In this document: positions 1 to 30,588 of the stretch, one piece after another | Layout: the number at the start of each line of letters is the position of its first letter | Position numbering within the stretch: position 1 is the stretch's first letter | IMG/VR virus record: IMGVR_UViG_3300030037_000008 | Coordinates: 47,072-111,071 of that record | DNA: 64,000 bases | Strand: one strand, 5' to 3' | DNA from: a virus | Lineage: Duplodnaviria > Heunggongvirae > Uroviricota > Caudoviricetes | Notes under the pieces: model-generated | Databases searched by the model: none | Told to the model about the DNA's origin: nothing | Seen by the model: the letters and a program-made list of their open reading frames with translations, nothing else | Position numbers and translations under genes: made by a program

Positions 1-252
1 AGAGATCTCTGGCTTAAGCATGTACCTGATGGACTATTAATTGACGAAGCTTTCCTTTTAATAAAGTACGGCAGTGAATACTTAGAAGATTGGTGGGACT
101 TTGACATGATAGAAGAAGGTGGAGACAGAGATGAGCCGGTTTATATTGAATATCTAATGCTATATGCTCCAGGTAAGATTGATATTTGGTATGATCAAAA
201 GTATTTCATGAAAACTAAATCTGAATTAATAGTGAGCATGTTATATGAGTAG
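1..252 (+). CDS. 3' portion of a WFDP/WWD-repeat family protein (gene begins upstream of the window)
   Basis: Frame open from base 1 to TAG at 250-252. Translation ...EDWWDFDMIEEGG...IDIWYDQKYFMKTKSELIVSMLYE carries the DxWWD / IDxWY repeat and the TK(x)ELIVxxMLY-x tail shared with 10 other ORFs. Stop overlaps the next start (ATGAGTAG). Confidence 0.55.
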   Translation, partial: RDLWLKHVPDGLLIDEAFLLIKYGSEYLEDWWDFDMIEEGGDRDEPVYIEYLMLYAPGKIDIWYDQKYFMKTKSELIVSMLYE

Positions 253-619
253 GAGATCAAACACGCCAAGTACAACAGTTCAACAATTCAGAGCTGTTAT
301 AGATTATTATGATATTTGGTTTGATCCGGATACATTTGATTGGGAGAATAATGCTAGATATCTAGCTAAACTTTACATGCATAAATACGACGATTGGGGC
401 AAACATTGTACTACTGAGCATATATCATATCATGTATTCTATTTTATTAAGTATGCTAATGAAACTATGGATGATTGGTGGGATGAAAGCTTTTTAGAAG
501 ACAGCTATTATGAGGAGAAACTACTTGATTATGCACTAGATCATATTGACGTCTGGTATAGCGATAAATATTTTACACAAACTAAGCAGACTATGATTGT
601 ACAAATGCTATATGTATAG
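245..619 (+). CDS. WFDP/WWD-repeat family protein
   Basis: 124 aa. Three degenerate ~28-aa repeats (DIWFDPDTFDWENNARYLAKLY..DDW / DDWWDESFLED..LLDYALDHIDVW / YSDKYFTQTKQTMIVQMLYV). Ends in LYV. Confidence 0.6.
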   Translation: MSRRSNTPSTTVQQFRAVIDYYDIWFDPDTFDWENNARYLAKLYMHKYDDWGKHCTTEHISYHVFYFIKYANETMDDWWDESFLEDSYYEEKLLDYALDHIDVWYSDKYFTQTKQTMIVQMLYV

Positions 620-657
620 TATATTGTTTAAACATTACTAAATAAGGAATAGTACAA

Positions 658-1467
658 ATGAATAAAACATTCAATTTTTTACCAGTAGCATGTCCCGCTT
701 GTAAGTCAAAACTTCAATGGGATGACAATGGAACTCATATCGTTTGTGTTTCTACTACGTGCTCTGCGCAAAATAGTAAAGGACTTCTTAACTTCTTTAC
801 AGTTCTTAAAGTAAAGCATGTTTCAATGGGAACGATCAATCGTTTGATTGAAGAAGGTCACACCTCGATTGAAGCAGTACTTCGTTTAGATGAATATGAA
901 ATTTCTCAAATGGATGGCTTAGGCAAATCAAAAGCAAAGCAAATTGTCAAAGGTCTTAAAGAAGCGGTTACTGATGTAGAACTTGCTACTATCCAAAAAG
1001 CAACTAACATCTTTGAAGGCTTTGGTGAACGTAAACTAAAATTGTTTAGTGACTATGTATGTCCATTAATGAAGCCTACTGAAGAAGACCTCCTCAAAAT
1101 TGAAGGTGTAGCTGGTGTTACTGCTAAAACGTTTGCTGATAACTATGATGAATTCTGGAAGTTCTTACAAAAGAATCCGATGATCAGAGTTAAGATGCCA
1201 GTTAAAGTAGTACAAGGATCTATTAACGAAGATCTCAACGGTGTAGTATTCACAGGTTTCAGAGATTCTGAATTGGAACAACAGATCATCGACAAAGGTG
1301 GTGTAATGAATTCAGGTGTATCGAAGAAAACAAAGATCCTCCTCTGTAAAGATCCTGATGGTAAGAGTAACAAACTCCAAGCAGCAAGAGAGAAAGGAGT
1401 TAAACTCATGACTAAACAAACCTTCATTGACACTTACATGTTAGAAGGTGGAATCATGGACATCTAA
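658..1467 (+). CDS. Stand-alone C-terminal module of NAD+-dependent DNA ligase (LigA-type Zn finger + HhH + BRCT), with no adenylation or OB domain
   Basis: 269 aa. Starts directly with the LigA Cys4 zinc finger (CPACKSKL...CVSTTCSAQ). Followed by helix-hairpin-helix-like GLGKSKAKQIV and a C-terminal BRCT signature (VFTGFRDSELEQQIIDKGGVMNSGVSKKTKILLCKDPDGKSNKLQAAREKGVKLMTKQTF). RBS AAGGAA is 7 nt upstream of ATG. Confidence 0.7.
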   Translation: MNKTFNFLPVACPACKSKLQWDDNGTHIVCVSTTCSAQNSKGLLNFFTVLKVKHVSMGTINRLIEEGHTSIEAVLRLDEYEISQMDGLGKSKAKQIVKGLKEAVTDVELATIQKATNIFEGFGERKLKLFSDYVCPLMKPTEEDLLKIEGVAGVTAKTFADNYDEFWKFLQKNPMIRVKMPVKVVQGSINEDLNGVVFTGFRDSELEQQIIDKGGVMNSGVSKKTKILLCKDPDGKSNKLQAAREKGVKLMTKQTFIDTYMLEGGIMDI

Positions 1468-2549
1468 TGGAAGCAATTCCAAATAGATTCAAGTTCACTA
1501 CTATTAAATCAAAGTTTAATAAAAGTGGGACTAGACATTTATCTTATTCTGATTCTCATATCATTATGTCTTATGGAAAGATCTTAGGATATTCTTTAGA
1601 AGATAGAGTTAATGTTTTGTATTCTGCTATTGATAAAGAGTACATCACTAAGTTTAAAACTCATTTTGAATTTGAAGGATACAACGAGAGAAATATATTC
1701 AATTCATTTAATAACTATGCCTTTAGTAATACTCAAATGTCCAAGGATGCTTTTAATTTTCGTTATAATGATCGCCTAGTACAAAAATCTTCTATGCGTC
1801 CAGACTATTCTAAGTTTATAGGATGTGAAAGTACAGAGACTATGTCAAAGAAGAACAAAGCTAAAGCTATGAAATATCTGCATAAATATCCTGACGACTT
1901 TTCTTACAATCTAATGCTAAGAAACCATGAAAACCTTGCATCACATCCTATTAATATGTATAGTAGTGATCTTCTTAACTATTATTTTGGAGCTCCTGGA
2001 ACTCTATCTACTGTAACAAAAACTTCTAGAATTATATTAGATAAGATATCTGATCCTAAGCTTATACAATCTTTTAAAGATTGTCCTTTCAGCAATTTGA
2101 TAAATGATAATACTGAATTGGAAACTACAATGGTAGTGTATAACTTTGATCAATATACAGGTAGACAAAGAAATCAGTCATCAGTAAGTCACTTCCATAC
2201 AGAAACCGATGATGCTAAAACAACTAGATTAAAACGACACGGTTCTTCTGGAGCATCGGTTATACAAGACTTGTATACAACCAAATGTATGCATCACTGT
2301 GATATTATTATGATGAGATTAGTTCTTGTTCAACTAGGAAAGTACAGTAGGTCTATTAAAAAACATATACAGATGCTACAACGAACAGATCAATATATAT
2401 TAGAAAGTTTAATTAGTAAGCTAATAATAATAAGAGGTGGTGTACAAAATGACATCCGTATATATAATAATAAAGTGAACGATTATTATACAGACTATAA
2501 TGAAAACATATTAAAAGGACAAGTAGGAGAACTATATGCAGATGATTGA
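1467..2549 (+). CDS. hypothetical protein (360 aa)
   Basis: Long ORF; ATG overlaps the preceding stop (TAATGG). Ends ...GELYADD. Confidence 0.5.
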   Translation: MEAIPNRFKFTTIKSKFNKSGTRHLSYSDSHIIMSYGKILGYSLEDRVNVLYSAIDKEYITKFKTHFEFEGYNERNIFNSFNNYAFSNTQMSKDAFNFRYNDRLVQKSSMRPDYSKFIGCESTETMSKKNKAKAMKYLHKYPDDFSYNLMLRNHENLASHPINMYSSDLLNYYFGAPGTLSTVTKTSRIILDKISDPKLIQSFKDCPFSNLINDNTELETTMVVYNFDQYTGRQRNQSSVSHFHTETDDAKTTRLKRHGSSGASVIQDLYTTKCMHHCDIIMMRLVLVQLGKYSRSIKKHIQMLQRTDQYILESLISKLIIIRGGVQNDIRIYNNKVNDYYTDYNENILKGQVGELYADD

Positions 2550-3723
2550 TCAAATAAATTCACGGCCGGCCCCTACGGATATGCTATACTGTAAAGGTGA
2601 TTATATTGTGCCTACATGTATGCTATCACTGAGAGACTTTTTTAAAAAACGACAATATGAAATGTCGTATGCTAACAATGGAAACAGTTTTAATTCTGAA
2701 TCTCTTGCTTCTCTTGCTATCAATATCTTAGATAAGATAAATTCAACTTTGTATTCAGATCAAGATCGATTTGGGATGGGCAAACATCTATACACGAATT
2801 TTGACTCAGATTACCGTACTATATTAGATATAGGAAATCCTGTATTTGATCATCTTATGTCAATGGGTTATGTATCATTTCAGAATTCTTATGATGAATC
2901 CAGTGTAGATAAACTTAGTAGCTTAGTATCAACATATCTAGATTCTACTGAATTTTTAGATTCGTTTTGTTTGGAACGGTTCTTATCTGGATTGGAAAAA
3001 TATGGGTTAGTTGCTCTACCGTTACTAGCAGATGCAAATTTGTTTATTGCTAACTGCGCATTAATTAACTCAACTTTAGAATACATTAATTCTACTCACA
3101 TGTCGTGTGGATATATTTCACCGGACACTTTTGAATTTGTAGTATTCATAGCAAAAATTATTAATGACTGTGACAATGCTTCAACATTAGGATCGTACAA
3201 CTATTCAAATAATACTTTTAATGAAATGATGTACGTATTATATCAATGCTCTTCTACTAATTGTGATTATAATATATCGTCCTTAGTATTAGAACACATC
3301 TTTGTTAAAAATCAAGTCAGTATGTGTAATACATTTAGATTGGGTGAAATAGTAAATAGATCAGCAAATGGTATAAGTAGTAACGCAGTAATTGAACTTT
3401 TAATGGAGTGTGAATATCTTATAAGTGATAATAACTTTTTCATACTATCAGAATCAGATATATCAACTGTATCTCGATTAATGAACATGGTAGAATTACA
3501 TCCAAGTGATTCATTAATGAATGATCGTTTATCTGATGTATTGATTAAAGATCTATTTAGTTTAGCTGATAATTATCCAGAAGTACCTTCATGGAAAACA
3601 TCAGTACTAGTAGAACTATTGTACAATAATCATGCAGAAGAAGTAATCACTCAAATGTCACCATGCGATTCTTATGAAGAAGTTAAAGAGGTATTAGATT
3701 CACGCAAATCTTTATACGCCTGA
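2536..3723 (+). CDS. hypothetical protein (395 aa)
   Basis: Long ORF overlapping the upstream gene by 14 nt. Ends ...RKSLYA. Confidence 0.5.
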   Translation: MQMIDQINSRPAPTDMLYCKGDYIVPTCMLSLRDFFKKRQYEMSYANNGNSFNSESLASLAINILDKINSTLYSDQDRFGMGKHLYTNFDSDYRTILDIGNPVFDHLMSMGYVSFQNSYDESSVDKLSSLVSTYLDSTEFLDSFCLERFLSGLEKYGLVALPLLADANLFIANCALINSTLEYINSTHMSCGYISPDTFEFVVFIAKIINDCDNASTLGSYNYSNNTFNEMMYVLYQCSSTNCDYNISSLVLEHIFVKNQVSMCNTFRLGEIVNRSANGISSNAVIELLMECEYLISDNNFFILSESDISTVSRLMNMVELHPSDSLMNDRLSDVLIKDLFSLADNYPEVPSWKTSVLVELLYNNHAEEVITQMSPCDSYEEVKEVLDSRKSLYA

Positions 3724-3782
3724 TCACTTAATACCACGTCCAACAAAAGGAGTATCAAATTAATGATACTCCTTTTTATTGT

Positions 3783-4601
3783 TTATTTAAAGATGCTTAA
3801 ATCTATTGGAGGAAGAGGACACATTAAATTGTCAACATCAGTAATACTAAGCATATCATCATTACCTAACATTACTAACTTATTAGATTGCATGTTAGTC
3901 TTTTCATGTACTGAGAATCGTTTCTTCATACTCTTAAGGTTTCTTAACATTGGATATATATGAGCAGTTCTAGAAGCTTCTAATGCTGCATTGTTATTGA
4001 ATATAGTATCTCCATCTTTAAGATCTTGGCAAATAAGATGTAAGTAAGAAAAAGTTTCATCGTCATCTTCAGTCTCAAATATTGTGTCATCTACTTGAGC
4101 ATTATACTTAAGTAGTACTTTAAATTTGAAGTAGTTTGGATATGTTTCTTTAAAGGTGCTCTCGGACGCTTTGTCTCTATTGACATATAGTCCTTCAAGT
4201 TCTTTAACTAATTCATCTATGTCCAACTTAGTAATGTCTCTAAGTTCATTAATGAACTGTATACGATCCAGTGGCTCAACATGATCCTTTTTAGCATACC
4301 AGTTTGAACACCATTTACTAGTTATATCAGTGTTATAACAATCAGTGGCATTATTAATAGAGTTCCACATGCAGATTGTTTTCCAACTAAAGAAGGACAT
4401 ATTATCTAGATCATCTAACCACTTAGTCAGACGTTCTTGCAGCAGTGGAAGTTCAAATGTTTTAAGATGATTAATGAACCTTAGGTTACGATCATCTAAA
4501 CACTTCTCAGCTTTAGTAATGCTTTGATCAATTACTTTAAGTAAATTACGAGTCTGATACTCATACTGTGTTGTATTGATTTCTACTTTACTTTTACTCA
4601 T
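3783..4601 (-). CDS. hypothetical protein (272 aa)
   Basis: Long minus-strand ORF. Stop overlaps the frd start region (ATGA-type junction at 4598-4601). Confidence 0.5.
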   Translation of the reverse strand: MSKSKVEINTTQYEYQTRNLLKVIDQSITKAEKCLDDRNLRFINHLKTFELPLLQERLTKWLDDLDNMSFFSWKTICMWNSINNATDCYNTDITSKWCSNWYAKKDHVEPLDRIQFINELRDITKLDIDELVKELEGLYVNRDKASESTFKETYPNYFKFKVLLKYNAQVDDTIFETEDDDETFSYLHLICQDLKDGDTIFNNNAALEASRTAHIYPMLRNLKSMKKRFSVHEKTNMQSNKLVMLGNDDMLSITDVDNLMCPLPPIDLSIFK

Positions 4602-5068
4602 CGTGTCATCTCCCAGAACTTAGCACGACCACAAGTTGATTCACCTAGCAGTGTTCTATTAGCCCATGGCATTTTTGGTTTATAGTAAGTGTCACCAGAA
4701 TAATCTCCGATAACTTCTGTCCAAATAATCTTTTGACAAATTGGTTCAAAGTGCTCATAAATCTGAGCTCCACCAATGATCATAAGTTCATCACATTCAG
4801 GAATCTCTTTGTATGAGTTGATGTAATGGAACCCGTCACTATGCGGACGACCATAATTTCTTAGACAGCGAGTAGTAAGAACGTAGTTAGTTCTATTAGG
4901 AAGTGGTCCATTAGGCAGTGTCTTAGCAGTAGTAGAACCCATAAGAACAGGCTTACCTTTAGTGTACTTTACGAAATGAGCAAAGTCTTCTTTGATATGC
5001 CATGGCAGTTTCATCCCGTCACCGATGAGACCGTCTGTAGTTGATGCATAAATCATTGTGACTTTCAT
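4598..5068 (-). CDS. frd: dihydrofolate reductase
   Basis: DHFR motifs MIYASTTDGLIGDGMKLPW ... LMGSTTAKTL ... LMIIGGAQIYEHF. Start trimmed to the internal ATG (MKVTMIYAS) preceded by AAAGGAAAATAT-ATG; the track ORF extends to 5101. Confidence 0.85.
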   Translation of the reverse strand: MKVTMIYASTTDGLIGDGMKLPWHIKEDFAHFVKYTKGKPVLMGSTTAKTLPNGPLPNRTNYVLTTRCLRNYGRPHSDGFHYINSYKEIPECDELMIIGGAQIYEHFEPICQKIIWTEVIGDYSGDTYYKPKMPWANRTLLGESTCGRAKFWEMTR

Positions 5069-5084
5069 ATATTTTCCTTTTGTT

Positions 5085-5855
5085 TTAGATAATTCTAGCA
5101 AAATCCCTAGATGTTAGATTAATAGTACCACCACATGAACTTAGCTTATTGCACATAGTGTGAGCTATGTTCAAGATGTTATTCTCAATGTAATACAGCT
5201 CATCATAAATAACACCCGTACTTTTGATATTTTCAGGTGCATCTTCTGTTACTAAACCAAAGCTAATTTTATGATCTTGATCAAGTCCGTGAAGTGCGAC
5301 ATAATTTAAAGATTGTACAAACGTTCTAGTATTAAATAGATCGCCATGTTTTTTATCATACATTTCTGCACTCATAACAAACATACCTCCAATAAAAGAT
5401 AGGAAATGTAAAGTGTCTTCTTTTCTACAATCACTAGTACTTAAAATGAAGTCATTGATATCAGCTTTGAGTTGGAGCTTATTTATTAAAGCACAATCAA
5501 GATTGTGTATCGCTTTCTCTAGAATTCTAGCGAATTCTTCTATATTCATAGTTTCATTTCGTAGATCAGCATTGTGTTTAATTTTAGTGAAAGTAGCTCT
5601 ATGTCTAAATGAATCATTAACTGTACCATGATAGATAACTTTCTTACTTCTAAACCAGCTAGCTGGCTTAACTTCAATGATACCGTTTTCACCTCGCAAT
5701 ATACCCAAAATCTCAGGTAGTTGAACATCTACAATAGAGTCTACTATAGCCTTTACATTATCATTCAATAGTTTATTAAGTGAATGTACTTTAGCTTGTG
5801 CTAGTACTAATACATCCTCTGCTTCTACTTCACACGTACTTAATTCTCTACTCAT
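5085..5855 (-). CDS. thyX: putative flavin-dependent thymidylate synthase (ThyX-like)
   Basis: 256 aa. RHR at residues 84-86 (FRHRATFT), matching the ThyX RHR position. A second ThyX-like block NTRTFVQSLNYVALH resembles NARSLMNFLNLRADSH. Sits immediately upstream of frd, the position td occupies in T4. Moderate confidence only. Confidence 0.5.
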   Translation of the reverse strand: MSRELSTCEVEAEDVLVLAQAKVHSLNKLLNDNVKAIVDSIVDVQLPEILGILRGENGIIEVKPASWFRSKKVIYHGTVNDSFRHRATFTKIKHNADLRNETMNIEEFARILEKAIHNLDCALINKLQLKADINDFILSTSDCRKEDTLHFLSFIGGMFVMSAEMYDKKHGDLFNTRTFVQSLNYVALHGLDQDHKISFGLVTEDAPENIKSTGVIYDELYYIENNILNIAHTMCNKLSSCGGTINLTSRDFARII

Positions 5856-13838: not shown

Positions 13839-14106
13839 CTAACATATCCAGTAAAGATTGAATGTATTCTCTTTTTAGAGTTGTAATACCTGGAGCAACC
13901 AAGTCTCTTGTTAATCTGATTTTAAGAGCTTTAATAATTTCTTTATCAGTGGTTGGCTTTACTTCTTTATCTAATGGAGGGAGTACTACCTTTACATTTG
14001 ATCTAGACGTTAACTGAACAAATACTTCTACTATACATGTTATTAATAGAATAAGTACTACAAACAATATTAATATTGAACATGGATTATTTAACATGGC
14101 TTCCAT
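13831..14106 (-). CDS. small membrane protein (91 aa, one TM helix)
   Basis: N-terminal hydrophobic segment ILILFVVLILLITCIVEVFV. Confidence 0.4.
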   Translation of the reverse strand: MEAMLNNPCSILILFVVLILLITCIVEVFVQLTSRSNVKVVLPPLDKEVKPTTDKEIIKALKIRLTRDLVAPGITTLKREYIQSLLDMLDA

Positions 14107-15050
14107 TAGGCATATCCATTTAAAGTATGAGAGAAAGATTCATAGTTCTGAACACCTCTGCCACCACAGCATTCACAATCTTTAAGAGGTTCATTGACAA
14201 CTTTCAGAATACTTTTTAAGTATACATCAAGTCTATCTTTAAGATCTTTTACATTGGAACCTTCCAGTGGTTCTACAGTGTGGTAGTCTTTGAGATATGT
14301 GGTAATACTAGGTGACTTAATTTTGAAGACACATGGAGTGTCACGTTGAGTTCTGAATGAAGTCGAGAATCTTGGTACTACATAAGGATCACCACCATTT
14401 TTCTTTTCTTCAGCCCAAATTTCTTCAGTTTTAATTTTAACAACTTTCTTAATAGCAATTGAAGATGAATCATCTCTATCAAATATTGCGTATCTAAGAT
14501 CCATGTTGTCACGTAAGAAAGATCTGATAACTTTCATTAGTTGAGCTGGTTTAATTGTACAAGGTTTGTTGTATAACAGAATGTCAGTATTCATTAAAGT
14601 CTGAAAGTCATTCCATGTTACGATGTCAGCAAACTTAAGTTTAACTGAGTGATCAGTCATGTTTGATACCTTTGGATCTAGTTGATATGCATCGTTAATG
14701 GGTTTAGAAAAATCACCAGCAGAAATTCTGCCTAAGCAAATGTCGGTAGCTTTAAGAACATGCCAAATTTGATCATGCATGGATTCTTTATACTCTAGCG
14801 ATTCAATTTTTGAAACACCTTTAATAATCATAAAGTCTTTAGAATTAAAGGTAGCAGTTGTTTCATAATCGTTTAGCACTTTACCGTTGATCTTTAGTGA
14901 CATTCGTTGTGACACAGCATTCATATCTTCATACTTTAAAACTGTTTGACCGGATGTAAAGTTATTTTCATACACGAATTTAGCTACGATCATGTCAGCA
15001 TCTTTAACTTCAAAGTATTGAATACTTTTAATATGTTGTATGTTACCCAT
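14106..15050 (-). CDS. hypothetical protein (314 aa)
   Basis: Long ORF; C-terminus carries CECCGG as in 9865..10344. Confidence 0.5.
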   Translation of the reverse strand: MGNIQHIKSIQYFEVKDADMIVAKFVYENNFTSGQTVLKYEDMNAVSQRMSLKINGKVLNDYETTATFNSKDFMIIKGVSKIESLEYKESMHDQIWHVLKATDICLGRISAGDFSKPINDAYQLDPKVSNMTDHSVKLKFADIVTWNDFQTLMNTDILLYNKPCTIKPAQLMKVIRSFLRDNMDLRYAIFDRDDSSSIAIKKVVKIKTEEIWAEEKKNGGDPYVVPRFSTSFRTQRDTPCVFKIKSPSITTYLKDYHTVEPLEGSNVKDLKDRLDVYLKSILKVVNEPLKDCECCGGRGVQNYESFSHTLNGYA

Positions 15051-16425: not shown

Positions 16426-16962
16426 TTAGTTGTATAAGTGTTTAGTTATTAGTTCTTGTTTTGAATAAACATCTTTGTATGCTTCTATACCTAGCTGTGC
16501 ATAATAAAGTAATAAATCATCTGAATACCAAAGGTCAATATCTTTGATACAATATTGAAGTAATAAATCTCCATCTTCCTGATCTGCAGAGTTGACATAC
16601 TTCTTTTCTAGAAGTCCAGGAATGAACCAATCTTCTATTCTATCAGGTACTCGTCTTATAACATGTCCCATATAGTTTAAGTTAAACATCATAGGATCCC
16701 ACCAAAGATCAAAGTATTGAGGAAAGTACTTAGGTAGAATGTGAGAGTAACTATGATAGCCAAATTGCTCCTTTGAAAATGTAGTTGGAAACATGTCAGT
16801 TACATATTCTTTGATTACTTTAGATTGTTCAAAGTATATAACTAAGTTTGCTAGTGGCTCAGTCTTGCATTGTTCCAAGTTAGATTCAATACGTTCTATT
16901 TCTTTGTCTACTCTAGCTTGTCTTACTGAGTTGTAGCCTACTGAAAATGATGATGTACTCAT
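16426..16962 (-). CDS. WFDP/WWD-repeat family protein
   Basis: FDLWWDP and IDLWYSDD repeats. C-terminus KQELITKHLYN. Confidence 0.55.
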   Translation of the reverse strand: MSTSSFSVGYNSVRQARVDKEIERIESNLEQCKTEPLANLVIYFEQSKVIKEYVTDMFPTTFSKEQFGYHSYSHILPKYFPQYFDLWWDPMMFNLNYMGHVIRRVPDRIEDWFIPGLLEKKYVNSADQEDGDLLLQYCIKDIDLWYSDDLLLYYAQLGIEAYKDVYSKQELITKHLYN

Positions 16963-17543
16963 GAGTAAAGCCTATCTGTCATATGCCAATTGACAATTTC
17001 TTCTTTAGTCATGTGAATCAGGGCATTGTATTTAGCTCCATCTTCGTTGTCTTTACGTTTTAGTGCGTGACACATTATAAATCTGTTTAGTGATTCAGGT
17101 GAGTACCAAATATCAATTTTATGTAGAGCGTTATCAAGTAACAGATAAAGCATATCACTTTCAATATATCTAATGTCTTTAAGCTTGGATCTATTCCACC
17201 ACTGTTCCATGTGGTCAGAACAATAGATAGTTAGCATTCTGTAATTTGCTTTAAAACAAACTTTACTTGGATCATACCAAATATCAAAGAAACGATTAAA
17301 GTGTATTAGCAAGTTGTTCATATGATTTTCAAAGTTATATGTGTCTTTATGAAGTGCCCACTGTTCTTCAAAGTTTTCATCCCACCATTTTCTAACAACT
17401 TCTGAAGTACTTTGAACTTGTCCTAATACAGAGAATACATTAGTACGTGAATATTGAATTTCAGCGTTTACTTTATCATATCTTCTGAGATAATCTTCTG
17501 TGAAGTCTTCGTATGATTGTTCTTGTTTTAAATTTTCATCCAT
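16959..17543 (-). CDS. WFDP/WWD-repeat family protein
   Basis: Repeats WWDENFEEQW, FDIWYDPSK, WWNRSK and IDIWYSPES. Ends RLYS. Confidence 0.55.
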   Translation of the reverse strand: MDENLKQEQSYEDFTEDYLRRYDKVNAEIQYSRTNVFSVLGQVQSTSEVVRKWWDENFEEQWALHKDTYNFENHMNNLLIHFNRFFDIWYDPSKVCFKANYRMLTIYCSDHMEQWWNRSKLKDIRYIESDMLYLLLDNALHKIDIWYSPESLNRFIMCHALKRKDNEDGAKYNALIHMTKEEIVNWHMTDRLYS

Positions 17544-17791: not shown

Positions 17792-17995
17792 TTAGTAAAT
17801 ACTGTGCATAAATGTTGATAAATAGTTTAATTGAGTTGGAGCTAATGTAATATCAGATCCATCAAAGTTTAAGTATTTACAATTTATATCTTCTACAACT
17901 GTACCTACTAGAACTTCTGACTTATCGTAGCTAATAAAGTATACTTTATCTTGCACGAGTTTGAATAACGGTGGTGCTTCTTTCTTTTTACTCAT
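17792..17995 (-). CDS. hypothetical small protein (67 aa)
   Basis: ORF only; stop overlaps the methyltransferase start (ATGA). Confidence 0.35.
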   Translation of the reverse strand: MSKKKEAPPLFKLVQDKVYFISYDKSEVLVGTVVEDINCKYLNFDGSDITLAPTQLNYLSTFMHSIY

Positions 17996-19197
17996 TTTTT
18001 CATTTCAGTCCATGTTGATGTTACTTTAGAGAGATCGCTGATTGAATCAAGATCTTCATATGTTAACTGGAAGCGCTGCATTTTAGTATGCTGTTGGTAT
18101 ACTAAGCTACAATCTTCTACCATATCTAGCTTGCCTTCTAATGCATCTATAGCTTGGCGTACAATGTATTCAACAGTAGAAGCTGCTACACCTTGAGCAA
18201 TACATTGTACTACAGAAGTTTTACATTCGTCTTGATAGAACTTGAAGTCTTTAGGATAACCCATAAGAGCTTTGAATTCTGCAATGTTTAAATCGCGATC
18301 TTCATGTGGGTGGATGTATTCTACCATAGAAGTAATAGAGCAACAATTCGAATCACCTCTCATCTTATATTTACCATGACCAAAGTACCGTTTACCTTCT
18401 TTAAGACATTGTGCAATACGTTTAACATTCTTATAGTTAGATGCATGCGATTCTTTAATAGATTCAATATCTACATTATTCATAGCAAGTGATTCAAACA
18501 TTGCTTTCTTAGGAAGAACATCTTTATAGAAAGGAACTAAAGCTGGATCAACATGGCCTTTGATGTATTCTCCCCAACCTTCATGACTAGAATCAACATT
18601 AACTAGAATATCATCTACTACGCATTTAGGATTTTTCATTGCATTAACGAGAGGTACTTTGTTATCAAACTCAGATTTCAACCAAGCAACAAACAAAGTT
18701 CTTTGGCGAATCATTGGAACACCGTGAGTATCATTAGTAAGACGAATAGCAGTGAAGTTATATTTTTCTTTCATAACATCAATAGCTTCTTTAAGAACAG
18801 GATAACCTTTTGAAATTAAAGCGGGCGCATTCTCGAGAATAAGTACCTTAGGTTCTAAGAGATTAGCTGTATGCGCTGATTCTACAATGTAGTTATTAAT
18901 TGAAGCATCAGCAGAAGCATGTCTATTAACAGAAGATAATCCAGAACAAGGAGCATTGGAAAACATAATATCAATCTTTCCTTTGTACTTCGCTTCTATA
19001 TCAGTTTCAGTCCATTCAGTTCTTCCAATAACATTTAGATCTTTTTCATTTTTAATCAAATGATATGAATTTTGTGTTAGAATATCATCTGAAATTTCCA
19101 GAATATCATTTACTTGGAGTCCAGCATTTTTCATTCCGAAGTATGCTGACCCGCCAAATATGAATTGACCGATGCCTGTGTATTTTTTCTTACTCAT
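17992..19197 (-). CDS. DNA (cytosine-5)-methyltransferase-like protein
   Basis: Motif I-like FIFGGSAYFGMKNAG. Catalytic motif IV PC, NAPCSGLSS. Motif VI ENV-like LILENAPAL. 401 aa. Confidence 0.65.
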   Translation of the reverse strand: MSKKKYTGIGQFIFGGSAYFGMKNAGLQVNDILEISDDILTQNSYHLIKNEKDLNVIGRTEWTETDIEAKYKGKIDIMFSNAPCSGLSSVNRHASADASINNYIVESAHTANLLEPKVLILENAPALISKGYPVLKEAIDVMKEKYNFTAIRLTNDTHGVPMIRQRTLFVAWLKSEFDNKVPLVNAMKNPKCVVDDILVNVDSSHEGWGEYIKGHVDPALVPFYKDVLPKKAMFESLAMNNVDIESIKESHASNYKNVKRIAQCLKEGKRYFGHGKYKMRGDSNCCSITSMVEYIHPHEDRDLNIAEFKALMGYPKDFKFYQDECKTSVVQCIAQGVAASTVEYIVRQAIDALEGKLDMVEDCSLVYQQHTKMQRFQLTYEDLDSISDLSKVTSTWTEMKK

Positions 19198-19237: not shown

Positions 19238-19732
19238 CTATCCATACATGGATTCTGCTATATATTCTTGTTCTGTTTTATCAAAGAAGTTTTCTGATGG
19301 AGGATTTCTATGCCAAGTACTTATATTACTTATACAATACTTTACTAAGTATTCTGTTCTACATTTATCAGAATTATCTTTACTGTCAGTAAAGATATCA
19401 CTAAAATACAAACTAGGATTATACCATTCTCTGAAATACTCATTACAATATCTAGCTAATGCTTTAGCATACCTCCAAGTATAGTCTACATTCTTAACAT
19501 AAGGCCACCATTTTTCAAAATGTTCGGAACAGAATTCGAATAAGAATTCTACATCAGAAAAACAATATACTTCAGGGTCCCACCAATCATCAAATCTATC
19601 TGAACAGAATTCTGCTAAGTAAAGAGAGTAGTACCACTGAAATGTATCAGGATCAAACCAATCATCAAAGTACTTAGCATTATCTATCCACCAAAGATCT
19701 TCAAATACAATATCTTCGTTAGTTAGTTTCAT
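19238..19732 (-). CDS. WFDP/WWD-repeat family protein
   Basis: DDWFDPDTFQW, FDDWWDPEVY, FEKWWPYV and FREWYNPSLY repeats. Ends SMYG. Confidence 0.6.
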   Translation of the reverse strand: MKLTNEDIVFEDLWWIDNAKYFDDWFDPDTFQWYYSLYLAEFCSDRFDDWWDPEVYCFSDVEFLFEFCSEHFEKWWPYVKNVDYTWRYAKALARYCNEYFREWYNPSLYFSDIFTDSKDNSDKCRTEYLVKYCISNISTWHRNPPSENFFDKTEQEYIAESMYG

Positions 19733-20232
19733 TCGTACATTACATTTGATAGAATTGAAAGTTTAGATTCGCCATGCATATAAATAGAAGCATCATCAAA
19801 CCAAGTGTCAATGTCTTTTATACAATGCTCTACTAAATGAGTAACTTTGGTTGCAGATTCATATATATGAATCGATCTGTCATCCTCGCAGTAATATTTT
19901 ATATGGTACCAAAGATCAAAGTTATCAGCACAGAATATAGCAAGCAATCCGGAATATCTCCAATTGTACTTATCAGCATTCCACCATGTTTTTATATTAT
20001 CGTAGCAGTGTCGTGTTAATGCATCAGATTCATGGTAATCATAAAGATCTTTGTCCCACCAAAATTCAAAATATTGAGAACAATACTCTGCTAGATATCT
20101 ACAGTTACGCCATTCGAATAAGTCAGGATCAAACCAAGTATGAAACAACTTTCCATTCTCTTCGAACCAATCATCGTTATACTCGATTTCCCATCTTTCT
20201 CTAAGTACATTGTATTCTAATTTATTACTCAT
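19729..20232 (-). CDS. WFDP/WWD-repeat family protein
   Basis: HTWFDPDLFEW, FEFWWDKDLY, IKTWWNADKY, FDLWYHIKYY and IDTWFDD. Ends VMYE. Confidence 0.6.
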   Translation of the reverse strand: MSNKLEYNVLRERWEIEYNDDWFEENGKLFHTWFDPDLFEWRNCRYLAEYCSQYFEFWWDKDLYDYHESDALTRHCYDNIKTWWNADKYNWRYSGLLAIFCADNFDLWYHIKYYCEDDRSIHIYESATKVTHLVEHCIKDIDTWFDDASIYMHGESKLSILSNVMYE

Positions 20233-20295: not shown

Positions 20296-20820
20296 CTAGT
20301 TGTATAATGATGCAGTTATAAGTTCTTGTTTAGATTGAGTGAATATATCCGAGTCATACCAAGTATCGATAGCATACATAGCACTTAAAGTTAATGTCTT
20401 TGTTTTCTTTATCATGAGTCTTCTAAGATTCATCTTCTCTAGATTACTAACTGAATTAAAACTATACTTATCTAAATCGAAATACAACTTATGATCATAC
20501 CAATCATCAAATCTGTCGGCACAGTATATCATCATCAGTTCATTAGGTTTGATCTCATTCCAATTATGTCGCATAGGATTCCACCAAACATCTAGATAAT
20601 CATGACAATAATAAGGCAGATGATTATAACTAGACATATCAAACAAATCTATATCATACCACTTCTCTATATCTTTAGTGCAATATTTAGCTAGTAGATT
20701 ACATCCCCAGCGATCCCACTTAAAGGTCTCTATATCAAACCACTCATCAAATCTATCGGCATTACATCTGAACCAACTATGACTGTAATATAATTCTCTT
20801 CCTTCATCATCATTATGCAT
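20296..20820 (-). CDS. WFDP/WWD-repeat family protein
   Basis: FDEWFDIETFKW, IEKWYDIDLF, LDVWWNPMRH, FDDWYDHKLY and IDTWYDSD. Ends SLYN. Confidence 0.6.
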   Translation of the reverse strand: MHNDDEGRELYYSHSWFRCNADRFDEWFDIETFKWDRWGCNLLAKYCTKDIEKWYDIDLFDMSSYNHLPYYCHDYLDVWWNPMRHNWNEIKPNELMMIYCADRFDDWYDHKLYFDLDKYSFNSVSNLEKMNLRRLMIKKTKTLTLSAMYAIDTWYDSDIFTQSKQELITASLYN

Positions 20821-21253
20821 ACATAGAATCCACTATGATTTCTTGTTTAGTATGTACTAATCTTTCTTCACAATACCATACATCTATCCTGTCAATACAA
20901 TGGTCTTTTAGATAACACCACATATACCAATCAAACTTATCAGGATTCCACCATACATTAAAGTTCTTAGAATTAAACTGTGCTAAGTATTTAGAATATC
21001 CTTGGTAGTCAAATCTAGTATGATTCCACCAACTTGCAAAGTGTTCAGGACAATACTTAGCCAATTGACTATATGCTAAATCAGAAATAAGTCCAGGTCT
21101 ATACCACTTACCAAAATGATTAGAACAATTAACTATAAGTAGTTCAATACAATCCCAATCAAAAGTCTCTAGATCAAACCACTCATCAAATCTATGTTCG
21201 TTAGCCCCGAACCACATTTTGCTGTAATAAGGTTCGTACTTATCAGTTTCCAT
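20813..21253 (-). CDS. WFDP/WWD-repeat family protein
   Basis: FDEWFDLETFDW, FGKWYRPGL, FASWWNHTRF, FNVWWNPDKF and IDVWYCEE. Ends SMYA. Confidence 0.6.
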   Translation of the reverse strand: METDKYEPYYSKMWFGANEHRFDEWFDLETFDWDCIELLIVNCSNHFGKWYRPGLISDLAYSQLAKYCPEHFASWWNHTRFDYQGYSKYLAQFNSKNFNVWWNPDKFDWYMWCYLKDHCIDRIDVWYCEERLVHTKQEIIVDSMYA

Positions 21254-21710
21254 ACATACTCTCTACTATAAACTCTTGCTTAGTTTTCTCAATGTTTAAG
21301 TAAGGATACCACATATCTATATGACTAATAGTCCTACTTGCAAATAACTTTAAGGCGCTTCTTACGCATATGTCATGTATAATGGTGTGAGGATCGCATC
21401 TGAACCATGTAGGAAAGTTATCTGAACAGTGTCTAAGTAAACCATCTACTTCGAAATATCTAAAGTATTCAGGATCCCACCAAATATCAAAATGATCAGA
21501 ACAGTATCTAGCAAGTCGGTTACAATGTCTCCAATAGAACTTATCAGGATACCACCAAGTTTCAATCTTGCTACTACAGTGACTAGCTAGATAATGTGAT
21601 TCACTCCACATGTACATATCAGGATCGAACCATTCGTCGAATCTATGAGAATTGTTAATGAACCAAAGTTCTGTGTATGTAACATCAGAGGGGTCTAATT
21701 TATTAGGCAT
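21243..21710 (-). CDS. WFDP/WWD-repeat family protein
   Basis: FDEWFDPDMYMW, IETWWYPDKF, FDIWWDPEYF, FPTWF and IDMWYPY. Ends SMYGN. Confidence 0.6.
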   Translation of the reverse strand: MPNKLDPSDVTYTELWFINNSHRFDEWFDPDMYMWSESHYLASHCSSKIETWWYPDKFYWRHCNRLARYCSDHFDIWWDPEYFRYFEVDGLLRHCSDNFPTWFRCDPHTIIHDICVRSALKLFASRTISHIDMWYPYLNIEKTKQEFIVESMYGN

Positions 21711-21831: not shown

Positions 21832-23043
21832 TTAGATAGTCAAGTCTTTAAGAATGATATCATAAACTAATGGAGCATCTGCATGAGATTTCCAGAAAGC
21901 GAATGATTCTTCTCTCATCTTATCTCTTGCAATTGGATCGTTAGCAAGTTTTTCCATGAGTTGTGCAGTCTCTTCTAAGTTATTCTCATCTACCCAAATT
22001 GTACCATTGTTTGGACAATCGATAAGTGGAATATCTTTAGTAAGGTGCATAGTATGCTGACCAAAATGCTTGTGGAATACTGGAATAGTACCGGATGCAA
22101 TTACATCTGCATGGCAATATTCAAAGCTCTTACCATATTTCTGAGGTTTGAGATTATAGAAGTCACAACCAAATGCTGTCTTGGAAAGACGATGCATACA
22201 TTCTACATATTTGTAATCACCAAAGACATAAGCATTTTCTCCAACTACCATGTCATCTGGACCAATGCCACATTTCTTGTAGTTAAGGCATTCTTTAATA
22301 TCAGGGCGTTGACCATTTGCACGTTGACCATCATTGAAGAAGAATCGCAATCCACCAATAGATAGTTCCATACCTTCTAAAGAAGTTTTGAATCCCTGTG
22401 CCTTGAGGTGTTCACGGTGAAGGTCATAGACTTGTTCAGGACCTTTCCACATTGCAGATCGACCAATGAATTTGAAAGTCTTATCATCTTGTTCTTCAAT
22501 GGGTTTCCAATAGTTAGCACGATGTTCATCAAAGTTAAAGCCTACTGGAAAGACTTTCATTGGAGTAGTGACACCTTCACGCGCCATCTTCTTAGCCAAG
22601 TCACCTTCAGTAGAGTGAGCAAAGATAGTATGCATCTTACTACATATTTCCATCATACGAGCATTTCGAACAATTGAATGAACTGAATGGTCTACACAAA
22701 TCATAATCTGTTTAGTAGTAAGACCATCAATCATCGCCATGAAGTTATCAACTGATTCATCCGGAGTTTTCTTGGGTGGCTGAGAGAAATGAATGACTAG
22801 ATCATAGTCACTATTAAGACGAGCAGTAAGAGCTTCACATTCATCTTTGTTCTTCATTCCCCATTCTTCTATTTCGATAGGTTGAGCATTACGTCTGCCC
22901 CATTTTTTATCGTTAGTAGCAAAGATGTCACAATTGACACCAATAGTTCTACAGTACTTTTGCATTTCAATACAGTTCTTTGTATTGCCTACACCTGGAA
23001 TACCGCGCGCCATGATGAGTGCTACTGATTTATAATTTGACAT
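21832..23043 (-). CDS. a-gt: DNA alpha-glucosyltransferase homologue (T4 a-gt / AGT-like, GT-B fold)
   Basis: Block-wise identity to T4 AGT. LIMARGIPGVGNTK matches IFMARGLEGCGVTK. FIGRSAMWKGPEQVYDLHREHLK matches WIGRTTTWKGFYQMFDFHEKFLK. SFEYCHADVIASGTIPVF matches SLEYTHLELGACGTIPVF. NGTIWVDENNLEET matches SGIIWFDENDMEST. The RBS AACAAAAAGGAAAAAT-ATG is shared with frd and uvsX. Confidence 0.8.
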   Translation of the reverse strand: MSNYKSVALIMARGIPGVGNTKNCIEMQKYCRTIGVNCDIFATNDKKWGRRNAQPIEIEEWGMKNKDECEALTARLNSDYDLVIHFSQPPKKTPDESVDNFMAMIDGLTTKQIMICVDHSVHSIVRNARMMEICSKMHTIFAHSTEGDLAKKMAREGVTTPMKVFPVGFNFDEHRANYWKPIEEQDDKTFKFIGRSAMWKGPEQVYDLHREHLKAQGFKTSLEGMELSIGGLRFFFNDGQRANGQRPDIKECLNYKKCGIGPDDMVVGENAYVFGDYKYVECMHRLSKTAFGCDFYNLKPQKYGKSFEYCHADVIASGTIPVFHKHFGQHTMHLTKDIPLIDCPNNGTIWVDENNLEETAQLMEKLANDPIARDKMREESFAFWKSHADAPLVYDIILKDLTI

Positions 23044-29655: not shown

Positions 29656-30588
29656 TTATTTTGATTCTCCAATGATAGCATTAATTTTATCTCTAAGATC
29701 AGCGTTATGCTGAGTAACAGCGATACCATATTGTTGTGGTAAGTAAACATCTTTTAGTACTTTGTAATCATCTTTAACATAATCATTCAAAACACATTCA
29801 TCATACATTACAGAATCTACTTCCCCTTTGTACAGAGCTACCATACACTTATCAATATTGTCATATAGTTTAGGTTCATTACCAGCATGGGTCATTAAGT
29901 TATGTGAAGAAGTATTTCTAATAGTAGCAACCTTTTGTTGTTTAAGTTCTCCCATTGAATATGATTGTACTGAAGCTTTATTCCATGATGCAGCAGAGAT
30001 ACCAATGATAGCTCCGAAGTACATAATACCACTCATCATGATGAATGCTGCAAATATTCTACCTGATATAGTTTTTGGAGCTACATCACCTAGACCTGAT
30101 GTTGATGATAAATTAAGACTTAGCCATATACCATGTCCGGCTCCAGCCAAAAATCCTTCATCGTTATTATCTCCATTGAGATCTTTTTCTAATACAGAGA
30201 ATATCATTCCTGATATGATCAAGAACACTACGAAGAGTGCTGCTGGAATAATCATATTACCAAAGAAGTTACAACACTTATTCCACATGCCAGTAGTATC
30301 TTTCTTAAGGAGTTTAACTGGAGAGTTGTTATAAGGAATTGTAAAATCAATCACTGATTCTCGTTGAGCATTAATAGTGATGTTACCAATAGCTATATCG
30401 GAAACACCTGTCTGAACATTGTTTAACGCTGTTGCAAGATCTACGTTCTGCATCTTAACATCGAACTGTTTGGATAATTCAACAATAAGATTCTTATCTT
30501 TCTGTGAGGCGTCATGTGTCATAGAAACGTTTAAAGTCTCTGCGTTTAGTGAAACCATTAACGATAGTAATAGGGCGAGGTATTTCAT
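29656..30588 (-). CDS. ionotropic-glutamate-receptor-like (GluR0-type) ligand-gated K+ channel: periplasmic-binding domain split by a 2-TM pore with a TxGxGD selectivity filter
   Basis: Signal peptide MKYLALLLSLMVSLNA. S1 lobe with the family-3 solute-binding-protein motif DIAIGNITINAQRESVIDFTIPY. M1 helix IIPAALFVVFLIISGMIFSVL. Pore loop WLSLNLSSTSGLGDVAP, where TSGLGD matches T(V/I)G(Y/F/L)GD. M2 helix ISGRIFAAFIMMSGIMYFGAIIGI. S2 lobe KVATIRNTSSHNLM...YDNIDKCMVALYKGEVDSVMYDECVL, which resembles GlnH/HisJ. Confidence 0.65.
   Translation of the reverse strand: MKYLALLLSLMVSLNAETLNVSMTHDASQKDKNLIVELSKQFDVKMQNVDLATALNNVQTGVSDIAIGNITINAQRESVIDFTIPYNNSPVKLLKKDTTGMWNKCCNFFGNMIIPAALFVVFLIISGMIFSVLEKDLNGDNNDEGFLAGAGHGIWLSLNLSSTSGLGDVAPKTISGRIFAAFIMMSGIMYFGAIIGISAASWNKASVQSYSMGELKQQKVATIRNTSSHNLMTHAGNEPKLYDNIDKCMVALYKGEVDSVMYDECVLNDYVKDDYKVLKDVYLPQQYGIAVTQHNADLRDKINAIIGESK

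What the first reader, a model, noticed from the sequence alone, without database searches (positions are those of the whole stretch)
658..1467. Orphan C-terminal half of an NAD+-dependent DNA ligase (Zn finger-HhH-BRCT) with no adenylation domain
The ORF begins directly at the LigA Cys4 zinc finger (CPAC...C..CSAQ) and ends with a canonical BRCT domain, but lacks the Ia, nucleotidyltransferase and OB domains. The upstream gene is an unrelated repeat-family protein, so the ligase catalytic half is not simply upstream. Possibilities: a split ligase with the N-terminal half elsewhere in the genome, a nick-sensing or DNA-clamp adaptor, or a remnant. The presence of nadV (NAD+ salvage) in the same window makes a functional NAD+-ligase system plausible.
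Basis: partly seen in the sequence, partly recalled or inferred. Interest (0 to 1): 0.55.

Follow-up and report, generated by a model that had tools for sequence, protein, structure and literature searches.

The report
Phage split DNA ligase, DNA-binding subunit
This gene encodes only the DNA-gripping back half of an NAD+-dependent DNA ligase in a large T4-like phage; such two-piece ligases are already known from phage T5 and recur in many phages, and the catalytic front half most likely lies just beyond the left edge of the window, so the case is fairly ordinary.

Summary
ORF 658..1467 (+, 269 aa) is a Cys4 zinc finger, a helix-hairpin-helix (HhH) domain and a BRCT domain, equivalent to residues ~400-671 of E. 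coli LigA. It has no Ia, adenylation or OB domain, and none occurs elsewhere in the 64 kb. It is not a relic: a 66%-identical marine relative keeps the same upstream neighbour and ribosome-binding site, and dN/dS is 0.27. "Orphan" is not justified, because only 657 bp of upstream sequence are visible. This architecture is already known as subunit B of the heterodimeric NAD+ ligase of T5-like phages (PDB 9HU3). I examined 16 truly split ligase loci, including the three nearest stand-alone relatives. In every one the adenylation/OB gene lies upstream on the same strand, 0-1.1 kb before the C-half. The gap holds nothing, a homing-endonuclease-like gene, or small genes of unknown function. In locus L094, three small genes fill the gap and nadV sits 1.6 kb downstream. 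The window's layout fits this pattern. The source contig (255,591 bp) could not be read, so the partner is inferred, not shown. Verdict: LigB-type subunit of an independently split ligase, a new member of a known kind. Interest is low to moderate.

The parts
658..1467 (+). ligB-like gene: stand-alone C-terminal module (Zn finger-HhH-BRCT) of an NAD+-dependent DNA ligase, 269 aa
644..648 (+). AAGGA ribosome-binding site 9 nt before the ATG. It overlaps the in-frame TAA stop at 643-645. The motif AAATAAGGAATA is conserved in relative L008.
691..762 (+). Cys4 zinc finger (C12, C15, C30, C35), aligning with E. coli LigA C408/C411/C426/C432
   Evidence: weak Pfam DNA_ligase_ZBD hit
778..1173 (+). 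helix-hairpin-helix DNA-binding domain (about residues 41-172)
   Evidence: Pfam HHH_5, HHH_2 and HHH hits; AF2 helices with pLDDT about 88-95; Foldseek matches to LigA structures
1225..1440 (+). BRCT domain (about residues 190-261)
   Evidence: Pfam BRCT above its cut-off; AF2 model
1..252 (+). 3' part of a multigene-family gene that runs off the left edge of the window. It occupies the space where the ligase N-half would otherwise be adjacent.
245..619 (+). second tandem copy of the same multigene family (124 aa, no known domain). A relative of this family also lies upstream of the ligB-like gene in L008.
1467..2549 (+). 360-aa ORF of unknown function whose ATG overlaps the ligB-like stop (TAATG), so it is probably translationally coupled
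   Evidence: No family or PDB hit. AF2 was uninformative.
2536..3723 (+). 395-aa ORF of unknown function, last gene of the short plus-strand block
3745..3776 (+). hairpin terminator-like site (13-bp stem followed by a T-rich tail) that closes the plus-strand block
Its link to the ligase is contextual only.
   Evidence: A NAMPT gene also sits 1.6 kb downstream of the split ligase in L094.

Best explanation
The ORF encodes the DNA-binding subunit ("LigB-type") of a two-polypeptide NAD+-dependent DNA ligase in a large (~256 kb) AT-rich T4-like or jumbo phage. An ancestral full-length phage ligA was cut exactly at the boundary between the OB domain and the zinc finger, and the two parts are now separate genes. 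The partner gene (Ia + adenylation + OB, about 350-415 aa) should react with NAD+ to form the enzyme-AMP intermediate. This subunit supplies the Zn finger and HhH domain, which in full-length LigA complete the protein clamp around nicked DNA, plus a BRCT domain. The two chains would assemble on the nick to seal Okazaki fragments and repair nicks.

Shown here: the domain content, the exact split point, purifying selection, and the absence of the partner from this 64 kb.

Inferred: that the partner exists, and that it lies upstream on the same strand just beyond window position 1, separated by members of an expanded multigene family; also the assembly and the activity.
For: Architecture and split point.

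Precedent: T5-like phages encode ligA (323-333 aa, aden+OB) followed by ligB (250-260 aa, starting at the Zn finger). 923 phage records hold a LigB relative. PDB 9HU3 is a "heterodimeric DNA ligase in complex with nicked DNA". See also PMC3632103 and PMC4319617.

Functional constraint: a 66%-identical relative (L008) keeps the four Cys, the start, the RBS and the upstream family gene, and dN/dS is 0.27 over 155 codons.

Comparative rule: in all 16 true split loci the N-half is upstream on the same strand, and the OB-encoding piece ends 0-1.1 kb before the C-half. These are L004, L005, L006, L007, L010, L012, L057-L060, L073, L083, L092, L094, L095 and L096.

Closest analogue: in L094, which carries the ORF's nearest stand-alone relative in a rough NJ tree without support values, a 413-aa N-half is followed by three small same-strand genes of unknown function (966 bp) and then the C-half, with nadV 1.6 kb downstream.

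Fit to the window: the visible 657 bp plus the remainder of the truncated gene imply a gap of about 0.8-1.0 kb (an inference from the gene lengths). That is inside the observed range.
Against: The partner was not seen. It is absent from the window, including 62.5 kb downstream. The rest of the 255,591-bp source contig could not be retrieved. A profile search meant to flag an N-half on a contig of that length listed only the 120 best hits, none of them from it. The upstream genes are not recognisable mobile endonucleases, unlike most inserts in relatives. The Pfam zinc-finger hit is below its threshold, and AF2 confidence for that region is low.
Confidence: 0.75

Rival explanations
1. Dispersed split: a cognate adenylation/OB gene exists in the phage genome but far from this gene (more than 10 kb away), so the two subunits are expressed from unlinked loci.
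For: No N-half lies within 62.5 kb downstream. The immediate upstream neighbours belong to a family that has spread across the genome, which hints at rearrangement.
Against: None of the 16 split loci examined shows unlinked halves. All have the N-half no more than 1.1 kb upstream of the C-half, or 3.4 kb for the whole three-piece gene.
Confidence: 0.1
2. True orphan: the genome has no cognate N-half, and the protein acts alone. It could be a nick- or DNA-binding adaptor recruited through its BRCT domain, a partner for the host LigA catalytic core, or a competitor that blocks host LigA at nicks.
For: The protein is under purifying selection yet shows no partner in 64 kb. It is translationally coupled to two ORFs of unknown function rather than to a ligase half.
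Against: No relative with enough upstream sequence lacks an N-half. From my own knowledge of LigA biochemistry, not tested here, the C-terminal module has no catalytic activity. A T4-like replisome needs a ligase, and none of the window ORFs scanned against Pfam matched a ligase family, nor did the NAD-ligase probes; not every ORF was scanned and no ATP-ligase probe was run.
Confidence: 0.1
3. Non-functional remnant of a ligase gene destroyed by insertion of the upstream gene family.
For: The catalytic half is missing from the window, and members of an expanded gene family sit where it would be expected.
Against: The ORF is intact with its own RBS. dN/dS is 0.27 against a 66%-identical relative, which conserves the start codon, the RBS and all four Zn-finger cysteines. 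Those cysteines have been lost in several full-length relatives, so keeping them here points to selection.
Confidence: 0.04
4. Second exon or extein of a ligase gene interrupted by a self-splicing intron or an intein.
For: T4-like phages carry group I introns and inteins. The UvsX-like gene in this window has an insertion of about 260 aa with a weak intein-domain hit.
Against: No Rfam family, group I/II introns included, reaches its threshold anywhere in the window. An in-frame stop lies 12 nt upstream, and the gene's own conserved RBS and ATG follow it. The upstream sequence is filled by two independent protein-coding paralogues. No intein motifs occur at the N-terminus.
Confidence: 0.01

Closest known systems
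Heterodimeric NAD+-dependent DNA ligase of T5-like phages (LigA + LigB subunits; PDB 9HU3/9I5I, "PR1 phage heterodimeric DNA ligase"; chain B is 100% identical over the 232 residues searched to the Providencia phage PSTCR5 protein)
   Same: The subunit B architecture is the same: it begins at the Cys4 zinc finger immediately after the OB boundary, continues through the HhH domain and ends in BRCT, at about 250-270 aa.
   Different: Sequence relatedness is weak (phmmer E 1.4e-4 to 9hu3_B, about 24-26% identity). The ORF is closer to full-length ligases of huge and jumbo phages (PHROG 3869 at 2.6e-41 against PHROG 3498 at 1.5e-19; 33% identity to the LR756502 ligase), so the split is probably independent. 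In T5-like phages ligA sits about 200 bp upstream. Here at least 657 bp of unrelated genes intervene, and the partner is unseen.
Full-length bacterial and phage LigA (TIGR00575; E. coli LigA, PDB 2OWO)
   Same: The Zn finger, HhH and BRCT domains are homologous and collinear with residues ~400-671. The four Zn-ligand cysteines align exactly.
   Different: It lacks domain Ia, the nucleotidyltransferase domain with its K-x-D-G lysine, and the OB domain. Its NCBIfam score is 73.7 bits against a cut-off of 444. On its own it cannot be a ligase.
"Genes in pieces" of T4-like phages created by inserted genes (Aeh1 nrdA split by mobE, T4 topoisomerase genes 39/60 with mobA, split gene 43 of Aeromonas phage 25; review PMC2988022)
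   Same: An essential replication enzyme that is contiguous in related phages is divided into separately translated polypeptides at a domain boundary. In relatives of this ORF the insert is a free-standing endonuclease-like gene, either DUF723-type or GIY-YIG.
   Different: In this window the visible intervening genes belong to a multigene family with no recognisable nuclease domain. Reassembly of the pieces has not been demonstrated for this ligase lineage.

Membership tests
NAD+-dependent DNA ligase LigA (full-length enzyme) | Nucleotidyltransferase (adenylation) domain with the K-x-D-G active-site lysine, plus domain Ia and the OB fold | tested here: not met
   There is no such domain in the ORF. 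LigA models match only positions ~390-655. There is none elsewhere in the window either.
NAD+-dependent DNA ligase LigA (full-length enzyme) | C-terminal Cys4 Zn finger, HhH domain and BRCT domain | tested here: met
   HHH_5 and BRCT pass their Pfam cut-offs. The cysteines align with E. coli C408/411/426/432. The fold matches 2OWO, 5TT5 and 1DGS.
Subunit B of heterodimeric phage NAD+ ligase (T5 LigB type) | A separate polypeptide that starts at the OB/Zn-finger boundary and carries Zn finger-HhH-BRCT | tested here: met
   The alignment with Bf23 and PSTCR5 LigB is in the same register ("M..IPTxCPxCGS" against "MNKTFNFLPVACPACKS"). PHROG 3498 matches at 1.5e-19 over positions 5-252 of 256. 9hu3_B is the best PDB sequence hit and the second-best fold hit.
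Subunit B of heterodimeric phage NAD+ ligase (T5 LigB type) | A cognate subunit A gene (adenylation + OB) in the same genome, normally just upstream on the same strand | not testable with these tools
   It is absent from the 64-kb window. Only 657 bp of upstream sequence are available, and the source contig could not be retrieved. It is present in all 16 split relatives examined.
Subunit B of heterodimeric phage NAD+ ligase (T5 LigB type) | Descent from the same split event as T5-like LigB (membership of that clade) | tested here: not met
   The ORF is closer to full-length huge- and jumbo-phage ligases than to T5-type LigB. In a rough NJ tree without support values, split forms are scattered among full-length forms, and the ORF groups with P0172 rather than with the T5-like sequences.
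Subunit B of heterodimeric phage NAD+ ligase (T5 LigB type) | Forms a complex with subunit A and supports NAD+-dependent nick sealing | not testable with these tools
   This needs the partner sequence and biochemistry.
Genes in pieces created by insertion of a mobile endonuclease gene | A contiguous orthologue exists in related phages | tested here: met
   68 of 80 related IMG/VR loci, and most of the 150 best representatives, are full-length at about 600-700 aa.
Genes in pieces created by insertion of a mobile endonuclease gene | A free-standing homing-endonuclease gene lies between the pieces | tested here: inconclusive
   Relatives carry DUF723-type or GIY-YIG genes between the pieces. The two visible upstream genes here have no nuclease signature, and the rest of the gap lies outside the window. 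L094 and L096 show that non-endonuclease inserts also occur.

The most novel reading that the evidence does not exclude
The phage genome contains no adenylation/OB partner at all, and this conserved Zn finger-HhH-BRCT protein works on its own. It might be a nick sensor or clamp adaptor. It might complement or hijack the host LigA catalytic core. It might act as a dominant-negative competitor that occupies nicks and blocks host ligase during infection. It could do any of these together with the two translationally coupled ORFs of unknown function downstream.
Probability: 0.1. Interest if true: 0.65.

Novelty: new member of a known kind. Interest (0 to 1): 0.3.

Why it matters
For this window alone it matters little. 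It corrects an apparent "orphan" into the DNA-binding subunit of a split ligase, a class already known from T5-like phages and already solved structurally.

The wider comparison made along the way is of modest interest. NAD+ ligase genes of marine T4-like, jumbo and T5-like phages appear to have been split repeatedly, and probably independently. The cut falls at the same OB/Zn-finger junction each time. The halves are separated by different inserts: DUF723-type and GIY-YIG endonuclease genes, small genes of unknown function, or nothing. In one case (L010) a second cut inside the adenylation domain gives three pieces. That makes LigA another natural example of an essential enzyme that tolerates fragmentation at a domain boundary. 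This is useful for annotation, because half-ligases should not be called pseudogenes, and for engineering split ligases.

Tried and rejected
(1) Retrieving the source contig to read upstream of position 1. The exact-protein look-ups failed for the ORF, for its identical database entry P0001 and for the upstream gene. Scans of IMG/VR, JGI metagenomes and GTDB genomes with peptides from the ORF found nothing. Scans with sub-clade patterns built from the ORF+P0002 alignment also found nothing. Megablast of the first 20 kb against the phage collection found nothing.

(2) Looking for an N-half protein on a contig of 255,591 bp by a profile search. Only the best 120 of 2,829 hits are listed, and all came from the huge-phage clade.

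(3) Looking for a diverged catalytic domain in the window by K-x-D-G motif scan, Pfam on the candidates, tblastn and a profile HMM. All were negative.

(4) Asking whether the translationally coupled downstream ORFs could be an unrecognised nucleotidyltransferase. There were no Pfam, PHROG, NCBIfam or PDB hits. Single-sequence AF2 gave pLDDT 31, which is uninformative.

(5) The intron hypothesis: no Rfam hit.

(6) L011 looked like a split locus, but it is an assembly gap. The N-half ends in masked residues and the C-half starts in the middle of the Zn finger, so it was excluded. P0005 and its cluster are contig-edge fragments of a full-length bacterial LigA, not stand-alone proteins.

(7) Homology between the window's upstream family and the inserts in other split loci: none found.

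(8) Mapping E. coli HhH residues (G455, R487, G521, G553, recalled from memory) onto the ORF. The alignment is unreliable in that region, so I make no claim from it.

(9) The primary paper for 9HU3 was not found in the searchable library.

Full report
**What is there**

The window is 33% G+C and densely packed with genes. It carries T4-type replication and DNA-modification genes:
- DHFR and a topoisomerase II large subunit
- a UvsX-like recombinase
- an alpha-glucosyltransferase and a C5 DNA methylase
- NadV

The topoisomerase is at most 44% identical to those of jumbo and T4-like phages, and no phage record shares near-identical DNA. A database protein identical to the ORF sits on a single contig of 255,591 bp. 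The window therefore comes from a large, poorly sampled T4-like or jumbo phage.

ORF 658..1467 (+) encodes 269 aa. An AAGGA site lies 9 nt upstream of its ATG, and an in-frame TAA lies at 643-645. Its stop overlaps the ATG of the next ORF (TAATG). The short plus-strand block 1..3723 ends at a strong hairpin terminator-like site at 3745-3776.

**Check of the observation**

- Pfam finds HHH_5 and BRCT above their curated cut-offs, and the LigA zinc-finger model below its cut-off.
- PHROG 3869, the full-length NAD-dependent ligase family, matches at 2.6e-41 but only over profile positions 390-654 of 656.
- NCBIfam LigA equivalogs match only their last ~260 positions, at 73.7 bits against a cut-off of 444.
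- C12, C15, C30 and C35 align exactly with E. coli LigA C408, C411, C426 and C432.
- An AF2 model built on 32 sequences has mean pLDDT 81: high for the HhH and BRCT parts, low for the Zn finger.
- Its best PDB matches are the C-terminal half of bacterial LigA (2OWO, 5TT5, 1DGS and others) and 9HU3 chain B.
- No adenylation or OB domain exists anywhere in the 64 kb. tblastn with three full-length phage ligases hits only 646-1446. A profile HMM of six phage N-halves against all six-frame ORFs gives a best E of 1.3. The few K-x-D-G ORFs belong to other families or have no Pfam hit.

**Is it a live gene?**

A 766-bp marine metagenome contig (L008) encodes a relative that is 66-68% identical. It has the same start, all four cysteines and the same AAATAAGGAATA ribosome-binding region. 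The gene upstream of it ends with the same C-terminal signature as the window's upstream genes. Nei-Gojobori dN/dS over 155 aligned codons is 0.27, with dS 0.94. The Zn-finger cysteines are kept here although several full-length relatives and some split ones have lost them. This argues against a decaying remnant.

**Is the architecture known?**

Yes. The best PDB sequence hit is "DNA ligase subunit B" (9hu3_B, 248 aa). The entry is titled [quoted passage not shown]. The chain is 100% identical, over the 232 residues searched, to a protein of the T5-like Providencia phage PSTCR5, and 923 phage records hold a relative.

In Bf23 and PSTCR5, ligA (323-333 aa, adenylation + OB) is followed about 200 bp later by ligB (250-260 aa, starting at the Zn finger). 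T5 ligA and ligB are cited in PMC3632103. PMC4319617 links the A and B subunits with phage-encoded NAD+ synthesis genes.

The ORF is only distantly related to T5-type LigB (E 1.4e-4, about 25% identity). It is closer to full-length ligases of huge and jumbo phages, for example 33% identity to the 620-aa ligase of LR756502. The split here is therefore probably an independent event.

**How common are stand-alone C-halves, and where is their partner?**

An exhaustive HMMER search of 1.84 billion representatives shows that most of the 150 nearest relatives are full-length, at about 600-700 aa. At least five are true stand-alone proteins that start at the Zn-finger position: P0156, P0172, P0180, P0181 and P0277. 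The other short hits carry the tail of an OB domain and are contig-edge fragments.

Among 80 related IMG/VR loci:
- 68 are full-length
- 7 are split
- 5 are cut by contig ends

I then examined the contexts of the split forms:

| Locus | Layout |
|---|---|
| L004, L005, L012, L057-L060 | aden+OB, then an opposite-strand DUF723-type endonuclease-like gene, then the C-half |
| L010 | three pieces: aden, DUF723 gene, remainder of NTase + OB, DUF723 gene, C-half |
| L092 | a 273-aa gene between the halves, possibly an endonuclease (my reading of its sequence motifs; not tested) |
| L095 | an opposite-strand gene with a weak GIY-YIG hit between the halves |
| L096 | a 339-aa gene of unknown function between the halves |
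| L094 | three small same-strand genes of unknown function (966 bp) between the halves |
| L073, L083 and the T5-like phages (L006, L007) | no gene inserted |

In all 16 loci the N-terminal piece lies upstream on the same strand. Wherever I read the junction, that piece ends just after the OB strand "...G(D/S)VIPxI". The C-half starts 0-1.1 kb further on. No locus with adequate upstream sequence lacks the N-half.

A rough NJ tree, without support values, scatters split forms among full-length ones and pairs the window ORF with P0172 from L094. L094 also has a NAMPT (nadV) gene 1.6 kb downstream of the split ligase.

**Applying this to the window**

Only 657 bp precede the ORF. They hold one complete gene (245..619) and one truncated gene (1..252) of a multigene family with at least 10 copies in the window. 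The family has no hit in Pfam, PHROGs, NCBIfam or the phage collection.

Family members here are 124-194 aa. I infer that the truncated copy starts roughly 130-320 bp left of the window edge, so an upstream N-half would end about 0.8-1.0 kb before the ORF. That is within the observed range and is the same kind of layout as L094. It is also not disproved, because I could not reach the source contig.

**Mechanism**

Part of this rests on established knowledge of LigA, not on tests made here. In E. coli LigA bound to nicked DNA (2OWO), the nucleotidyltransferase, OB and HhH domains encircle the duplex. The N-terminal Ia and adenylation domains suffice for self-adenylation with NAD+, while nick sealing needs the C-terminal DNA-binding domains.

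A split at the OB/Zn-finger linker leaves two folded modules that can reassemble on DNA, as the solved heterodimeric phage ligase bound to nicked DNA indicates. T4-like phages tolerate comparable splits of nrdA, topoisomerase and DNA polymerase (PMC2988022). I therefore assign this ORF as the DNA-clamp subunit. I give 0.75 to the full statement, which includes the partner lying just upstream.

**Rivals**

- A partner far away in the genome: 0.10.
- A true orphan that acts as a nick-binding adaptor or a competitor of host LigA: 0.10.
- A decaying remnant: 0.04. dN/dS and the conserved start argue against it.
- An intron- or intein-interrupted exon: 0.01. There is no Rfam hit, an in-frame stop and the gene's own RBS lie directly upstream, and the upstream space is filled by independent genes.

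**The nadV argument**

nadV is present, but it lies 38 kb away on the opposite strand. From my own knowledge, NAD+ salvage genes are common in large phages for other reasons. The closer linkage in L094 and the remark in PMC4319617 make a functional connection plausible but not specific.

**Verdict**

This is a new and probably independently derived member of the split NAD+-ligase class. Interest is 0.3. That score rests mostly on the side observation that phage ligA has been split repeatedly at one junction by different inserts, once into three pieces.

Noticed in passing
window 1-252, 245-619, 16426-16962, 16959-17543, 19238-19732, 19729-20232, 20296-20820, 20813-21253, 21243-21710, 41186-41731: An expanded multigene family has at least 10 copies, partly in tandem arrays. 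The proteins are 124-194 aa, rich in W, Y and D, and share a C-terminal motif of the form "IDxWYxxKYF...K...IVxMLY". The family has no hit in Pfam, PHROGs, NCBIfam or the phage collection. A possible relative, recognised only by the shared C-terminal motif (pairwise E about 0.005-0.2), also sits upstream of the ligB-like gene in L008.
   Followed up: partly
L010 6623-10783 (110-kb marine T4-like contig, Logan ERR7850085): An NAD+ ligase gene is in three pieces: adenylation part (239 aa), a DUF723 gene, the rest of the NTase domain plus OB (160 aa), a second DUF723 gene, then HhH-BRCT (260 aa). One cut therefore lies inside the nucleotidyltransferase domain. Whether the enzyme is still active is unknown.
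   Followed up: partly
L004 9143-9952, L012 9167-9928, L010 7323-8489 and 8942-9922, L057 9118-9876: DUF723 (PF05265) genes recur between the ligase halves. They have repeated CxxC modules, and most (not the L010 7323-8489 copy) also have a C-terminal "DFY(I/L)P...(I/V)E(Y/F)DGxxH" motif. To my eye that motif looks like a PD-(D/E)xK or Vsr-like nuclease. They behave like a family of free-standing homing endonucleases that target phage ligA.
   Followed up: partly
window 29656-30588 (-): A 310-aa protein combines a periplasmic solute-binding/glutamate-receptor ligand-binding domain with a two-TM potassium-channel pore (SBP_bac_3, Lig_chan-Glu_bd, Ion_trans_2). This looks like a phage-encoded GluR0-like ligand-gated ion channel.
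   Followed up: no
window 45992-47965 (-): A UvsX-like recombinase of 657 aa. The recombinase homology covers only about residues 335-609, and there is a weak Intein_splicing hit around residues 184-335. This may be an intein-containing or otherwise interrupted uvsX.
   Followed up: no
window 14106-15050 (-): A homologue of Gad1, the Gabija anti-defence protein (Pfam PF25705, E 7.6e-28).
   Followed up: no
window 17992-19197 (-), 21832-23043 (-), 4598-5101 (-): A C5 cytosine DNA methylase, a T4-type DNA alpha-glucosyltransferase and DHFR occur together. This suggests a modified-cytosine (glucosyl-hmC-like) genome.
   Followed up: no
window 25281-27119 (-): A 612-aa protein has an N-terminal sugar-nucleotidyltransferase domain and a weak C-terminal aminoglycoside-phosphotransferase-like kinase hit. 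It may be a bifunctional sugar-activating enzyme.
   Followed up: no
alignment A2: L003, L002, L001, P0004, P0180, P0277: Many phage NAD+ ligases, both full-length and split, have lost all four Zn-finger cysteines while keeping the surrounding fold region ("W(N/T)(D/E)xxV(D/E)"). The window ORF, P0002, P0156, P0172, P0181 and the T5-type LigB proteins keep them.
   Followed up: partly
window 1467-3723 (+): Two ORFs of unknown function (360 and 395 aa) appear to be translationally coupled to the ligB-like gene, with overlaps of 1 nt and 14 nt. No homologue was detected in any family library or in PDB sequences. Their connection with the ligase subunit, if any, is unexplained.
   Followed up: partly
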